This document shows, in pieces, positions 19,901 through 22,529 of a stretch of 64,000 nucleotides of DNA. The first letter of the stretch is position 1. Each line of letters begins with the position of its first letter. The position numbers and the translations under genes were made by a program. The stretch is from Antedon mediterranea (taxonomy: Eukaryota > Animalia > Echinodermata): NCBI RefSeq assembly GCF_964355755.1, contig NC_092671.1, forward strand, positions 15,429,742 through 15,493,741. Reading direction: 5' to 3'. Under the pieces are notes generated by a model, which did not search any database, was not told where the DNA came from, and saw only the letters and a program-made list of their open reading frames with translations.

Positions 19901-22048
19901 AACAATGTCAGGTCTGATTGGGGCTGTGAAAACTGAAGGTAATGTTACATTGTTGCCACTGGCTTCACATTTCTCATTGTATACTGTAATGAGCGGACGT
20001 GCTGCAGCAACCGCCTATTAAAAAAAAGCAGTACATAAGTGAAAAAGCATGCATATCTAGGATAGGCCTAAGTCTAGGTTAGTAGTATTTTTTTTTTTGT
20101 TATAGCTAAAGATATGGTACCGTATCCATACTTCTAAAATCTAAAGGTACAGTCATTATAGAGGGCGCTATGTAAGATAGATGTTAATCAAATAGGTTAT
20201 GGCAATGGTTTCCAGCAAGAAAGGTGTGTGTGGCTTAGTGAGCTAGTGATGAGGCTATGGCTTAACCCTTTCACTGCGTATACCCGGTAACAAACGTCGT
20301 TGAAATACGTATACCCGGTAATACAAGGTATGGGCAAACAATTATTTAATCGTATTTGCCTATAATATATGGCACCCTCTATATTCTTTCGATGAACTTG
20401 AATAATTTTGCAAGTCATTAAAAAAATTTCCCAGCAAAAAAAACGGCCCTCTATAGTTGTATTATCGTCTTGAAAATAATGCGCCCTCTATAGTTAATTA
20501 TATATAGTATAGTATATATAATAGTATTTCTATCTTGGAAAGTTGTTTTGAGTAGCGTAATGGCGGCCATTTTGAAAGTAACACAAATTTACCAGCCCCA
20601 ATAGGGCAACATCGTGTTTATCACAACACACACAAAAAAAAAATTCTGAAACAATAGTTAGTTTTTGTACTAGGCCTATAGTGAATTATTGGAAACTGTC
20701 ATTATTTTCTCGATTTTGCCCCAAAACTTTGATTTGTGCATAATTTTTATAAAACAATAAAAATAATTTAATTTTTTTTTAAATATTTTTATTTGTTATA
20801 CGTATCATCAATATCCAGTTGGAAAAACGTATTCCATAAGAATTTCTTATAGAAAATATAGTTTTTATCATTGAATAGATAAAAAACTCGAAATCCAAAA
20901 TACCTGTAATGACGTCACATGACGTCATCAATATGCAAATTACTTTTTTTTTTATACCCAACTGTAAACTAACCCTTTGCCCATCACACACCACAAAAAT
21001 AATTACACAATTATCTCAATTAGTATTTTTTTACAATTTATTAAAATATCATATGTTTTTCTTAAATATATATTACGCACAGAGGTGGGAATAATGCGCC
21101 GCAGTGAAAGGGTTAAGGGGTTGCAGGTTTGATTCTCTAATTATAATTGACGGTGTTTTTTTTGGGGGGTTTAATTTAAGAGAGATTATTTAGAGGGTTA
21201 GGTTTTTAATATTTAGGAACGAGTTTTAAAATTTACTGAACAAGTTTTAATATTTAGGAACAAGTTTTAATATTTAGGAACAAGTTTTAATATTTAGGGA
21301 GTTTTAGGAATTCAATTTTACTGTACCTTTAGCAAACGGCAGTGCCATTGATCCCCCTCTATAATTACCGTACCTTTAGTTTTTAGAAGTATGGATACGG
21401 TACCGTATAGAAACAGCGTTTAACAAAATTTAGTATGACATATGGCAGCAGAATTTTAAATTCAACAAAAATCTTTTTCTTCTGATACTTAGGCTATAAT
21501 TATTATTTGAATTCATATTTAAACACTTGACATTTATAAAAGATCTAGACGCGGCCGAACCGCGACCGAATGTTGCCACATTCTGGCATGTGATGATTCG
21601 GTCGCACAAGCATTTTGCTTAACACATAAAACATATAAACGCGACCGACAAATGGGCGCGACCGAAGTGATGGCCGCTCAATTAAAATACTATTTTTCGT
21701 AGTAGAAACTATTTATTTATAATTTTAAAACGATATTCTGTTACTTCATAATATACTTAATACTCTAAGGCATATACAAATAAATTACACAAAACAAAAT
21801 CTTTACCATTTTGATTTCGTTCTGGCATGTGATGATTCGGTCGCACAAGCATTTTGCTTAACACATAAAACATATAAACGCGACCGACAAATGGGCGCGA
21901 CCGAAGTGATGGCCGCTCAATTAAAATACTATTTTTCGTAGTAGAAACAATTTATTTATAATTTCAAAACGATATTCTGTTACTTCATAATATACTTAAC
22001 ACTCTAAGGCATATACAAATAAATTACACAAAACAAAATCTTTACCAT
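16974..22048 (-). CDS. RPL4: 60S ribosomal protein L4 (uL4); 7 well-supported coding exons plus a putative ATG-only exon 1
   Basis: The minus-strand exons translate to a canonical RPL4: [15 protein letters not shown]..., [200 protein letters not shown]...[11 protein letters not shown], and a lysine-rich tail ...[27 protein letters not shown] followed by a stop. CDS exons (plus coordinates, transcribed right to left): 19837-20014, 19334-19579, 18956-19080, 18452-18581, 18046-18202, 17384-17630, 16974-17078 (stop 16974-16976). Splice phases are consistent across all junctions. Exon 2 opens directly at an acceptor (tttttttaatag|GCGGTT) with no ATG, so the initiator must sit in a tiny upstream exon. 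The best candidate is minus-strand aaaATG|gtaaag at 22046-22048, duplicated at 21807-21809, preceded by TTTATATAAAGAGC (TATA-like), a CCAAT box and a TGACGT half-site at about 22075-22150. Confidence 0.85.
17158..17358. repeat. Structured hairpin element in the last RPL4 intron: 35-bp outer stem plus an internal 11-bp stem
   Basis: aagcctgtttttctgtcgacgttattcgacgctatcgt at 17158-17195 is the reverse complement of acgatagcgtcgacgtcgacaggaaaacaggctt at 17323-17358. An inner hairpin atcgtcgttga...tcaacgacgat sits at 17188-17225. No C/D box motifs were found. Confidence 0.45.
17749..17830 (-). ncRNA. C/D-box snoRNA, U18 (SNORD18)-like, copy 1, intronic in RPL4
   Basis: The minus strand reads cagag-tata-TGATGA-ttcAACTTCTGGTCCGTGTTT-ATGA-...-ccaagaagta-CTGA-tctctg. 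It has a C box (TGATGA), a terminal D box (CTGA) and a 5-6 bp terminal stem (CAGAG/CTCTG). The 12-13 nt guide GGTCCGTGTTT is complementary to the LSU rRNA motif AAACACGGACC and sits immediately upstream of the D' position. Confidence 0.7.
18307..18386 (-). ncRNA. C/D-box snoRNA, U18-like, copy 2, intronic in RPL4
   Basis: Same C-box, guide and D-box architecture as copy 1. The terminal stem is TTGACAG/CTGTCAA. Confidence 0.7.
18847..18926 (-). ncRNA. C/D-box snoRNA, U18-like, copy 3, intronic in RPL4
   Basis: Same architecture as copy 1. The terminal stem is ACAGAG/CTCTGT. Confidence 0.7.
19181..19260 (-). ncRNA. C/D-box snoRNA, U18-like, copy 4, intronic in RPL4
   Basis: Same architecture as copy 1: TGATGA, the ttcaacttctggtccgtgttt guide and a terminal CTGA. 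Confidence 0.7.
19707..19790 (-). ncRNA. C/D-box snoRNA, U18-like, copy 5 (most diverged, canonical D' box), intronic in RPL4
   Basis: The minus strand reads ...aaaTGATGAgccAACTTCTGGTCCGTGTTG-CTGA-tttcatgtgacgttattcaggaagtt-CTGA-tcta. This is a complete C / guide / D'(CTGA) / D(CTGA) layout with the same rRNA-complementary guide. Confidence 0.65.
20265..21112. mobile_element. Non-autonomous piggyBac-like MITE (about 848 bp) with TTAA target-site duplications and 13-bp TIRs CCCTTTCACTGCG
   Basis: The left end reads TTAA|CCCTTTCACTGCG at 20261-20277 and the right end reads CGCAGTGAAAGGG|TTAA at 21100-21116. There is no long ORF inside. Subterminal direct repeats of cgtatacccggtaa are present, and an internal twin CRE palindrome aatgacgtcacatgacgtcat lies at about 20915. 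Confidence 0.6.
21181..21300. repeat. About 22-bp tandem repeat (aggaacaagttttaatattt) x about 4
   Basis: Direct reading of the sequence. Confidence 0.6.
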
Positions 22049-22060
22049 TTTGATTTCTTT
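21578..22060. repeat. Tandem duplication, 2 x about 242 bp, overlapping the putative RPL4 exon 1 (ATG|GTAAAG on the minus strand in each copy)
   Basis: 21578-21818 and 21819-22060 match at over 97%. Each unit contains the hairpin gcgaccgaat...attcggtcgc. Confidence 0.7.
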
Positions 22061-22529
22061 CGCTCTTTATATAAAAACTGCAGCGCCTACAAAACTCGTG
22101 GGCCAAAAAGGCAGATCCACTGTAGAGAATCAGTGACGTAAACGTATTGGTAAAATAGTTTTTTGTTAATTTATAAAGTGTTAAAAATAGTTTATAATAA
22201 TGTAGATGTATCTAATATAAATATTTGTTTTCAAAATATATTAATATTTTGCATTTACGTATAATTATTATATTTTAATAACAAAATGTCACATAATATT
22301 ATAAAAACTTGTTTTTATAGAAAGATTATACTATAGAGGGAGGTATAACAAAAATACCGGGAAATTTGTTTTATTTTTTGTTTGTTAAGTTTCAAGATTT
22401 AGGCTCCTAATTGGTAATAATTAAATTGCATAGTTTATCGGGTTTTATTTCAAAATATGTAAAGACAATTTTAACACTATTTGCTATTTAAGTTTAGAAC
22501 GTGTTACGCATTAATATATTTGTTGTTAA

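What the first reader, a model, noticed from the sequence alone, without database searches (positions are those of the whole stretch)
21578..22150. Putative ATG-only first exon of RPL4 is duplicated inside a 242-bp tandem repeat
RPL4 coding exon 2 begins directly at an acceptor (ttttttttaatag|GCGGTT), so the initiator ATG must be in a micro-exon. The only ATG|GT(A/G)AG-type candidate upstream on the minus strand is aaaATG|gtaaag. It occurs twice (22046-48 and 21807-09) because it lies in a tandem duplication. The distal copy is preceded by TTTATATAAAGAGC, a CCAAT box and TGACGT. This gives two alternative start exons or donors, an unusual configuration for a ribosomal protein gene.
Basis: inference. 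Interest (0 to 1): 0.5.

Follow-up and report, generated by a model that had tools for sequence, protein, structure and literature searches.

The report
Duplicated RPL4 start-codon splice donor
In the feather star Antedon mediterranea, a recent 239-bp tandem duplication has copied the last few bases of ribosomal protein L4's first exon (start codon and splice donor included) into its first intron; this is a real but probably neutral quirk of an otherwise ordinary gene.

Summary
A two-copy tandem repeat lies at 21581-22061: period 239, matched span 242, 4 differences. It contains aaaATG|gtaaag twice, at 22048-46 and 21809-07. These are the only good ATG|GT donors within 7 kb upstream of RPL4 exon 2.

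The ATG-only coding first exon is real but ordinary. Anneissia, sea urchin, acorn worm and zebrafish RPL4 all end exon 1 at ATG|GT. Human and mouse rpL4 are catalogued the same way. The spliced 396-aa protein is exactly RefSeq XP_071942678.1 of Antedon mediterranea.

The real exon 1 is 22110-22046. It is a pyrimidine-start (TOP-like) 62-nt leader plus ATG and is 73% identical to Anneissia, while the flanks are unalignable. The duplication starts only 10-13 nt before the ATG, so it copies no promoter. There are two candidate donors, not two start exons.

The proximal copy is most likely an intronic decoy. If it were used, the leader would gain 239 nt and 7 upstream AUGs.

Anneissia has no such duplication, so it is lineage-specific and young. 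Which donor is used could not be tested because no transcripts were reachable. Interest is low.

The parts
22046..22110 (-). True RPL4 exon 1: 62-nt 5' leader starting at a TOP/TCT-like C (gCCTTTTTGG, C+1 taken as 22110), plus the ATG
   Evidence: 49/67 identical to Anneissia exon 1 (shuffles 36.7 +/- 2.1), while the 65-nt flanks on both sides are at shuffle level. Leader length is 62 nt against 63 nt in Anneissia. There is no upstream AUG in the leader.
22046..22048 (-). Distal (ancestral, cap-proximal) start codon, followed by donor gtaaag at 22045-22040
   Evidence: Orthologous to the annotated Anneissia CDS start aaaATG|gtatgc at L001:10001.
21820..22061 (-). Distal copy of the tandem duplication: the last 10-13 nt of the leader, the ATG, the donor and about 226 nt of intron 1
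21581..21822 (-). Proximal copy of the tandem duplication. It lies wholly inside intron 1 when the distal donor is used
   Evidence: A 3-nt microhomology (GAA) sits at the junction.
21807..21809 (-). Proximal duplicated ATG, followed by an identical donor gtaaag at 21806-21801
   Evidence: Identical to the distal site over 12 exonic and 45 intronic nt. It has no promoter of its own.
21807..21821 (-). Hypothetical 15-nt in-frame micro-exon AACGAAATCAAAATG, behind a junction-created cag acceptor (21824-21822)
   Evidence: it would encode MNEIK ahead of MAVAAA. The acceptor has a weak pyrimidine tract (0.53). The extended protein is not in the 15-billion-protein collection. Speculative.
20015..22045 (-). 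Intron 1: 2031 nt from the distal donor, 1792 nt from the proximal donor
   Evidence: It contains the proximal repeat copy and a 1297-bp element with terminal inverted repeats.
19837..20014 (-). RPL4 exon 2, beginning with codon 2 (GCG, Ala) directly after the acceptor ttttttttaatag
   Evidence: The N-terminus MAVAAARPL is identical in Anneissia and S. purpuratus.
22066..22073 (-).
   Evidence: It starts 25 nt upstream of the ATG and about 37 nt downstream of the conserved start motif. Anneissia has GATATTTTAA here.
21550..21904 (.). Cluster of TCGGTCGCG-like motifs in intron 1: 3 per repeat unit and 2 just after the repeat
   Evidence: 10 matches in the window against 1.17 expected, 8 of them here. 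None in the Anneissia locus. Function unknown.

Best explanation
This is a young, lineage-specific 239-bp tandem duplication across the exon 1/intron 1 boundary of the RPL4 (uL4) gene of the feather star Antedon mediterranea. The gene has the ancestral RPL4 design: a short non-coding first exon (22110-22046) that starts at a pyrimidine-tract (TOP/TCT-type) initiator and ends exactly with the ATG, followed by a phase-0 'start-codon intron'. The duplication copied only the last 10-13 nt of the leader, the ATG, the 5' splice site and about 226 nt of intron. It was probably a slippage or end-joining event at a 3-nt GAA microhomology (inferred). The downstream copy therefore has no promoter and sits inside intron 1 as a second, sequence-identical 5' splice site plus start codon.

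The most likely mode of operation is inferred, not shown. Transcription starts at about 22110. The cap-proximal distal donor (22046|22045) is joined to exon 2 (20014), and the proximal copy is discarded with the intron, giving the normal mRNA. Any use of the proximal donor would give the same protein-coding junction, but with a leader 239 nt longer that carries 7 upstream AUGs. Such an mRNA would be poorly translated. The duplication is therefore neutral to mildly deleterious, not a designed pair of alternative first exons.
For: Structure of the repeat.
Gene model: the spliced protein matches RefSeq XP_071942678.1 [Antedon mediterranea] exactly.
Ancestral layout: ATG|GT at the annotated CDS start in Anneissia, S. 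purpuratus, Saccoglossus and Danio, each with a pyrimidine start motif about 60-70 nt upstream. Human and mouse rpL4 are listed as 'E1e', and 29% of mammalian ribosomal protein genes share this layout (PMC554972). Yoshihama's count is 20 of 73, and start-codon introns are enriched in ribosomal protein genes (PMC1626468).
Exon 1 boundaries: a conserved block of 49/67 identical positions, about 6 sd above shuffles, with flanks at shuffle level and leaders of 62 and 63 nt.
No promoter in the proximal copy: homology begins at -13/-10, and no YYCTTTYY or NYCTTTYY motif lies between 22109 and 21800.
Lineage-specific: Anneissia has no tandem repeat at exon 1, and the intronic part of the unit is absent from its locus.
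Cost of the proximal donor: 7 upstream AUGs. The first is in an A(-3)/G(+4) context and encodes [14 protein letters not shown]. Three are in a frame that overlaps the true AUG.
Persistence: 3 intronic substitutions between the copies suggest the duplication has lasted some time in an essential gene, which argues that normal mRNA is still made (inference).
Against: No transcript data for this species could be reached, so donor choice is untested. [quoted passage not shown] That would favour the proximal copy here. The preference for the cap-proximal donor rests on my own recollection of cap-binding-complex effects on the first 5' splice site, and on the argument from selection. The donor ATG|GTAAAG matches only 6 of 9 consensus positions, so partial occupancy and mixed use are plausible. 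The transcription start is inferred from motif and conservation, not mapped. The differences between the copies could be allelic differences captured at the time of duplication, so the age argument is weak.
Confidence: 0.6

Rival explanations
1. The proximal (intron-proximal) donor at 21807|21806 is the one mainly used, following the proximity rule for competing identical 5' splice sites. Most RPL4 mRNA would then carry a 301-nt leader with upstream ORFs. The duplication would act as a hypomorphic or down-tuning allele, or as a source of an unproductive isoform.
For: The two donors are identical over 12 exonic and 45 intronic nt. [quoted passage not shown]
Against: The resulting leader has 7 upstream AUGs, including three in a frame overlapping the main AUG. 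That would be costly for an essential, highly expressed gene, yet the duplication shows some divergence between copies. The in-vitro data used strong consensus sites in internal-exon-like substrates, not a cap-adjacent 65-nt first exon with a 6/9 donor.
Confidence: 0.2
2. The duplication created a new short intron and a 15-nt micro-exon. The distal donor splices to the junction-created acceptor cag| at 21822, and the proximal donor splices to exon 2. This adds five residues (MNEIK) to the N-terminus of uL4.
For: The 15 nt AACGAAATCAAAATG are in frame and free of stops. The would-be intron of 224 nt is in the size range of this gene's other introns, 249-415 nt. One constitutive acceptor of this gene has an even poorer pyrimidine tract, 0.41 against 0.53. 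Tandem duplications can create functional introns in one step (PMC3265369).
Against: I saw no recognisable branch-point consensus, and the pyrimidine tract is weak. 15-nt exons are usually hard to define (own knowledge). The RefSeq model for this species is the 396-aa form, and the exact 401-aa form is absent from the protein collection.
Confidence: 0.08
3. One reading: there are two alternative first exons, each copy able to start a transcript, so the gene has two start exons with their own upstream signals.
For: Both copies carry ATG|gtaaag. An AT-rich TTTATATG lies about 70 nt upstream of the proximal ATG.
Against: The duplication excludes the conserved start motif and about 50 nt of leader. 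There is no pyrimidine initiator in the unit. That position would put initiation at or beyond the ATG.
Confidence: 0.04
4. The second copy is not fixed biology. It is either an assembly artefact or a rare, possibly heterozygous structural variant of the sequenced individual.
For: The divergence between copies (3-4 of 239) looks to me (own knowledge, not measured here) no larger than allelic variation in marine invertebrates. The only other crinoid available lacks the duplication.
Against: The copies are not identical, and the junction is clean with a 3-nt microhomology. That is typical of a real duplication event. From my own knowledge, false duplications in assemblies are usually much larger and lie at contig ends.
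Confidence: 0.08

Closest known systems
[quoted passage not shown]
   Same: Exon 1 is a non-coding leader plus ATG. A phase-0 intron follows directly, and exon 2 starts with codon 2. The same layout is seen in five deuterostome RPL4 genes (PMC554972 Table 1; PMC1626468).
   Different: Nothing differs in the basic design. Here the exon-intron boundary has also been tandemly duplicated.
TOP / polypyrimidine-initiator (TCT-type) promoters of ribosomal protein genes
   Same: A C followed by five T (gCCTTTTTGG) lies 62 nt upstream of the ATG, conserved with Anneissia CTCTTTTTGG at 63 nt. This fits the mammalian consensus (Y)2C+1TY(T)2(Y)3 (PMC554972) apart from -2 and +7/+8.
   Different: The start site is not mapped. 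Position -2 is G. There is no TATA at -25; a CRE-like ACGTCA sits there instead. Human and mouse rpL4 are scored TATA '+'.
Experimental pre-mRNAs with duplicated, competing 5' splice sites (Eperon-lab C174C-type substrates)
   Same: Two sequence-identical 5' splice sites lie in tandem (239 nt apart here, 174 nt in C174C) upstream of one 3' splice site (PMC3413131).
   Different: This is a natural allele. The sites are of moderate strength (6/9). The upstream site sits 65 nt from the cap. The intron is about 2 kb. Usage is unknown here.
Intron gain by tandem duplication of an AG|GT site (Rogers model; Hellsten et al. 2011)
   Same: A short intragenic tandem duplication supplies a duplicate splice signal in one step (PMC3265369).
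   Different: The duplicated boundary is an existing donor (ATG|GT), not an exonic AGGT. No duplicated AG acceptor restores the original mRNA. The only candidate acceptor was created at the junction and would leave 15 extra nt.
Unproductive alternative splicing that autoregulates ribosomal protein genes (e.g. C. elegans rpl-12, human RPL3, Xenopus L1/RPL4 intron regulation; own knowledge, not checked here)
   Same: An alternative splice choice in a ribosomal protein pre-mRNA would yield a poorly expressed transcript (variant B).
   Different: There is no evidence of regulation, no conservation of the second site in another species, and the element is very young.

Membership tests
uL4 / RPL4 gene | Encodes a full-length uL4 protein (Ribosomal_L4 plus the L4 C-terminal domain) with an intact reading frame across canonical GT-AG introns | tested here: met
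   8 exons, 1191-nt CDS, 396 aa, all introns GT-AG. 94% identical to Anneissia uL4, whose precomputed domains are PF00573 and PF14374. Exact match to XP_071942678.1.
Start-codon-intron ribosomal protein gene (AUG at the 3' end of exon 1) | Exon 1 ends exactly with ATG followed by GT, and exon 2 begins with codon 2 after an AG | tested here: met
   aaaATG|gtaaag and ttaatag|GCG. The N-terminus MAVAAARPL is shared with Anneissia and S. purpuratus.
Start-codon-intron ribosomal protein gene (AUG at the 3' end of exon 1) | The intron position is conserved in orthologues | tested here: met
   ATG|gt at the annotated CDS start in Anneissia, S. purpuratus, Saccoglossus and Danio. Human and mouse rpL4 are 'E1e'.
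Start-codon-intron ribosomal protein gene (AUG at the 3' end of exon 1) | The exon 1-exon 2 junction is observed in transcripts | not testable with these tools
   No cDNA was found. The RefSeq protein model agrees, but its evidence and chosen ATG copy could not be read.
TOP/TCT-initiator ribosomal protein promoter | Transcription starts at a C within a pyrimidine tract (YYC+1TTTYY or (Y)2C+1TY(T)2(Y)3) | tested here: inconclusive
   GCCTTTTT at 22112-22105 matches 7 of 8 positions. Anneissia CTCTTTTT matches 8 of 8 at the same distance from the ATG, and conservation begins exactly there. The start site itself is not mapped.
Tandem segmental duplication | Two head-to-tail copies with no spacer, high identity, and absence from a sister lineage | tested here: met
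   Period 239, 98%, no indels. GAA microhomology at the junction. Absent in Anneissia.
Alternative first exons (two promoters) | Each first exon has its own transcription start and promoter | tested here: not met
   The duplicated segment begins 10-13 nt upstream of the ATG and excludes the conserved start motif. No pyrimidine initiator lies within the unit.
Competing alternative 5' splice sites | Two usable donors lie upstream of one acceptor, and both are used in vivo | not testable with these tools
   The donors are identical in sequence. Usage needs RNA data.
Intron gain by tandem duplication (Rogers/Hellsten) | A duplicated AG|GT, so that the 5' GT and 3' AG bracket the redundant copy and splicing restores the original mRNA | tested here: not met
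   The duplicated boundary is ATG|GT. The only AG at the copy junction (cag|AAC) leaves 15 extra nt in the mRNA.

The most novel reading that the evidence does not exclude
The duplicated donor is functional rather than neutral. One possibility is an alternative 5' splice site that diverts part of the RPL4 pre-mRNA into a leader loaded with upstream ORFs and poorly translated. That would be a newly born unproductive-splicing control of a ribosomal protein gene. The other possibility is the birth of a 15-nt micro-exon that extends uL4 by MNEIK. Either would be a one-step origin of new splicing-level regulation or coding sequence from a 239-bp duplication, caught very early.
Probability: 0.07. 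Interest if true: 0.5.

Novelty: new member of a known kind. Interest (0 to 1): 0.2.

Why it matters
It matters mainly as a correction. The ATG-terminal first exon that looked unusual is the standard, ancient design of RPL4 and of many ribosomal protein genes, and the 'TATA box' is part of the 5' leader. The duplication is a small natural experiment. Two identical 5' splice sites, one 65 nt and one 304 nt from the cap, compete for one acceptor in an essential, highly expressed gene. Public RNA-seq for this species could show whether cap proximity or intron proximity decides the choice in vivo. It is also a practical warning for annotation. Short reads that reach fewer than 10 nt upstream of the ATG cannot tell the two donors apart, because the first difference is at -10, and gene predictors may pick either copy.

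Tried and rejected
- Searched for spliced transcripts of this species: exact exon 1-exon 2 and exon 2-exon 3 junction patterns in the metagenome contig collection, 0 hits each.
The RefSeq twin P0121 is not in the positional index. So I could not read which ATG copy NCBI annotated.
- Tested whether the repeat unit is a known RNA: Rfam at E<=1 over 10000-26000 found nothing in 21581-22061 on either strand. A plus-strand GTGATGA...stem...GTGATGG arrangement looked C/D-box-like by eye but has no D box and no Rfam support. Rejected.
- Tested whether the unit is a dispersed repeat or transposon: no other copy in the window or in the Anneissia locus. Rejected.
- Folded the RNA from the start site through the second copy: z = -2.2, only local hairpins that are identical in both copies, so nothing distinguishes the donors. 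Not informative.
- Considered YY1-like GCCAT motifs (GAGCGGCCATC in the unit; CGCCATTTT, CGCCATATT and GCCGCCATC near the start in Anneissia, Saccoglossus and Danio). The match in the window is weak and about 190 nt downstream of the start. Not pursued.
- Considered a non-coding exon further upstream splicing into ag|AGCGAAAG...ATG. Rejected, because the block conserved with Anneissia is continuous from the pyrimidine motif to the ATG.
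Full report
**What is in the sequence.** On the minus strand the window carries a complete RPL4 (uL4) gene. Tandem Repeats Finder reports a two-copy array at 21581-22061 with period 239, 98% matches and no indels. The repeat finder gives the copies as 21581-21819 and 21820-22058. The copies differ at four positions only: 22058/21819, 22000/21761, 21965/21726 and 21949/21710. The junction reads ...CATGCCAGAA|CGAAATCAAAATG with a 3-nt GAA microhomology. Each copy contains aaaATG|gtaaag, at 22048-22046 and 21809-21807. Of the four ATG|GT sites on this strand between 20015 and 27000, only these two have a donor-like continuation. 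The unit has no further copy in the window.

**Gene model and source.** Joining ATG (22048-22046) to exons 20014-19837, 19579-19334, 19080-18956, 18581-18452, 18202-18046, 17630-17384 and 17078-16974 gives a 1191-nt reading frame. All introns are GT-AG, and the protein has 396 residues. Its best named relative is uL4 of the feather star Anneissia japonica at 94% identity. An exact-sequence look-up finds the 396-aa protein itself as RefSeq XP_071942678.1, 'large ribosomal subunit protein uL4A-like [Antedon mediterranea]'. The window is therefore from that crinoid (taxonomy). The N-terminus MAVAAARPL is identical in Anneissia and Strongylocentrotus, so exon 1 must contribute exactly one codon, the ATG.

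**The ATG-terminal exon is ordinary.** In the annotated loci of Anneissia (L001:10001), S. purpuratus (L002:1501), Saccoglossus (L003:1501) and Danio (L004:1501) the coding range begins ATG|gt. In every case a pyrimidine tract lies roughly 60-70 nt upstream. [quoted passage not shown] Nielsen and Wernersson describe the general excess of such start-codon introns. They note its enrichment in ribosomal protein genes and quote Yoshihama's count of 20 of 73 human genes (PMC1626468).

**Where exon 1 really starts.** Aligning the window against Anneissia shows one conserved block. It runs from gCCTTTTTGGCCCACGAG (Anneissia CTCTTTTTGGCCACGA...CCACGAG) to AAATCAAAATG|GTA.
- Over 22110-22046 the identity is 49/67, against 36.7 +/- 2.1 for shuffles.
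- The 65-nt and 130-nt flanks upstream, and the first 130 nt of the intron, are at shuffle level.
- The leader is 62 nt here and 63 nt in Anneissia, and it contains no AUG.
- The block begins at a C followed by five T. That is a TOP/TCT-type initiator, matching 7 of 8 positions here and 8 of 8 in Anneissia.

I therefore place exon 1 at 22110-22046. The start site is inferred, not mapped. CCAAT and ACGTCA lie at -40 and -29 from the presumed start, in sequence that is not conserved overall.

**What was duplicated.** Homology between the copies begins only 13 nt upstream of the ATG: 3 nt of microhomology, one mismatch at -10, then identity. The duplicated segment is thus the last 10-13 nt of the leader, the ATG, the donor and about 226 nt of intron 1. 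It does not include the start motif or about 50 nt of leader. No YYCTTTYY or NYCTTTYY motif lies between the two ATGs. The proximal copy is a promoter-less piece inside intron 1. The configuration is two candidate donors, not two start exons. Anneissia has no tandem repeat at its exon 1, and the intronic part of the unit is absent from its locus. The event is therefore specific to the Antedon lineage and, at 3-4 differences in 239 nt, young.

**Consequences of each splice choice (start assumed at 22110).**
- (A) Distal donor to exon 2: the canonical mRNA with a 62-nt leader.
- (B) Proximal donor to exon 2: the same protein-coding junction, but a 301-nt leader with seven upstream AUGs. The first is in an A(-3)/G(+4) context and encodes [14 protein letters not shown]. 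Three are in a frame that overlaps the authentic AUG.
- (C) Distal donor to a junction-created acceptor (cag|AAC at 21822), plus proximal donor to exon 2: a 224-nt new intron and a 15-nt in-frame micro-exon adding MNEIK.

The donor ATG|GTAAAG matches 6 of 9 consensus positions, the weak end for this gene. The cryptic acceptor has a pyrimidine fraction of 0.53, against 0.41-0.76 for the real acceptors. The 401-aa variant is not in the protein collection, whereas the 396-aa form is.

**Which donor is used?** This could not be tested. Scans for the spliced junctions found nothing, and the record's coordinates were not retrievable. [quoted passage not shown] That would predict variant B. Three points argue the other way. 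The upstream site is only 65 nt from the cap, where cap-binding complex promotes U1 recruitment (my own knowledge). The sites are only moderately strong. Variant B would cripple translation of an essential gene, yet the duplication has persisted long enough to diverge slightly. I judge predominant use of the distal donor, with the proximal copy removed as intron, the most likely outcome (about 0.6). Substantial use of the proximal donor is the main rival (about 0.2).

**Comparison with known systems.** The gene belongs to the start-codon-intron class of ribosomal protein genes, and probably to the TOP/TCT promoter class. The duplication is an ordinary tandem segmental duplication. It resembles the duplicated-5'-splice-site substrates of splicing biochemistry. 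It differs from the Rogers/Hellsten intron-gain model, because the duplicated boundary is ATG|GT with no duplicated AG (PMC3265369). It fails the test for alternative first exons.

**Verdict.** The feature is real and the reading was partly right. The biology is probably neutral: a new instance of a known kind of mutation in a gene with a textbook layout. Interest is about 0.2. Its main value is as a natural test of cap-proximal against intron-proximal donor choice, which one RNA-seq mapping would settle.

**Other things seen.** These are listed separately in the report:
- five SNORD18 copies in RPL4 introns 2-6;
- a nested inverted-repeat element in intron 1;
- a cluster of TCGGTCGCG motifs in and after the repeat;
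- a CTAG/AGGCCT-rich block conserved in position between RPL4 and Zwilch;
- conserved dynein-RPL4-Zwilch synteny;
- an isolated 5S rRNA-like sequence.

Noticed in passing
window 19710-19780, 19184-19254, 18850-18920, 18307-18377, 17749-17819 (all minus strand): Five SNORD18 (U18) box C/D snoRNA copies, one in each of RPL4 introns 2-6, all above the Rfam gathering score (41.7-51 bits). Anneissia RPL4 has two copies above threshold (L001:12427-12496 and 13023-13093). Human RPL4 hosts U16 and three U18 isoforms (PMC3035437), so the U18-RPL4 host relationship extends to crinoids. No U16 match was found.
   Followed up: partly
window 20112-21408 (RPL4 intron 1): A 1297-bp insert bounded by 54-nt terminal inverted repeats (20112-20165 / 21355-21408, 93%). 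Inside it are an 18-nt perfect inverted pair (20261-20278 / 21100-21117) and a 20-bp x 4.7 tandem array (21204-21298). It looks like nested non-autonomous DNA transposons and accounts for most of the length of intron 1.
   Followed up: partly
window 21550-21904: The motif TCGGTCGCG (up to 1 mismatch) occurs 10 times in the window against 1.17 expected, and 8 of those are here. There are three per repeat unit, including an inverted pair TTCGGTCGC/GCGACCGAA, and two just downstream of the repeat. None occurs in the Anneissia locus. It may be a binding-site cluster or the remnant of a small repeat. Unexplained.
   Followed up: partly
window 22540-22900; L001 9360-9560: A GC-rich (about 0.5) block rich in CTAG/AGGCCT lies in the RPL4-Zwilch intergenic region, about 430-790 nt upstream of the RPL4 start. 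18 of 38 AGGCCTA/TAGGCCT hits in the window fall here, and 14 of 22 hits in the Anneissia locus fall at the equivalent place. It is a positionally conserved simple-sequence block in a head-to-head promoter region.
   Followed up: partly
window 9832-15970 (+), 16974-22110 (-), 23168-28915 (+): The gene order dynein heavy chain - RPL4 - Zwilch matches Anneissia. Zwilch is head-to-head with RPL4 in Anneissia, Saccoglossus and Danio as well, an old deuterostome microsynteny with a shared promoter region of about 1 kb here.
   Followed up: partly
window 14039-14148 (+): A full-length 5S rRNA match (55.8 bits, gathering score 38) lies alone among dynein heavy-chain exons. It could be an isolated 5S gene or pseudogene, or a 5S-derived SINE.
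   Followed up: no
window 38589-38919 (both strands): Extra tblastn matches to a fragment from the Anneissia Zwilch region, about 10 kb beyond the Zwilch exons and on both strands. The same fragment also hits 24552-24733. It is probably a repeat shared by both crinoid genomes and not a coding exon.
   Followed up: no
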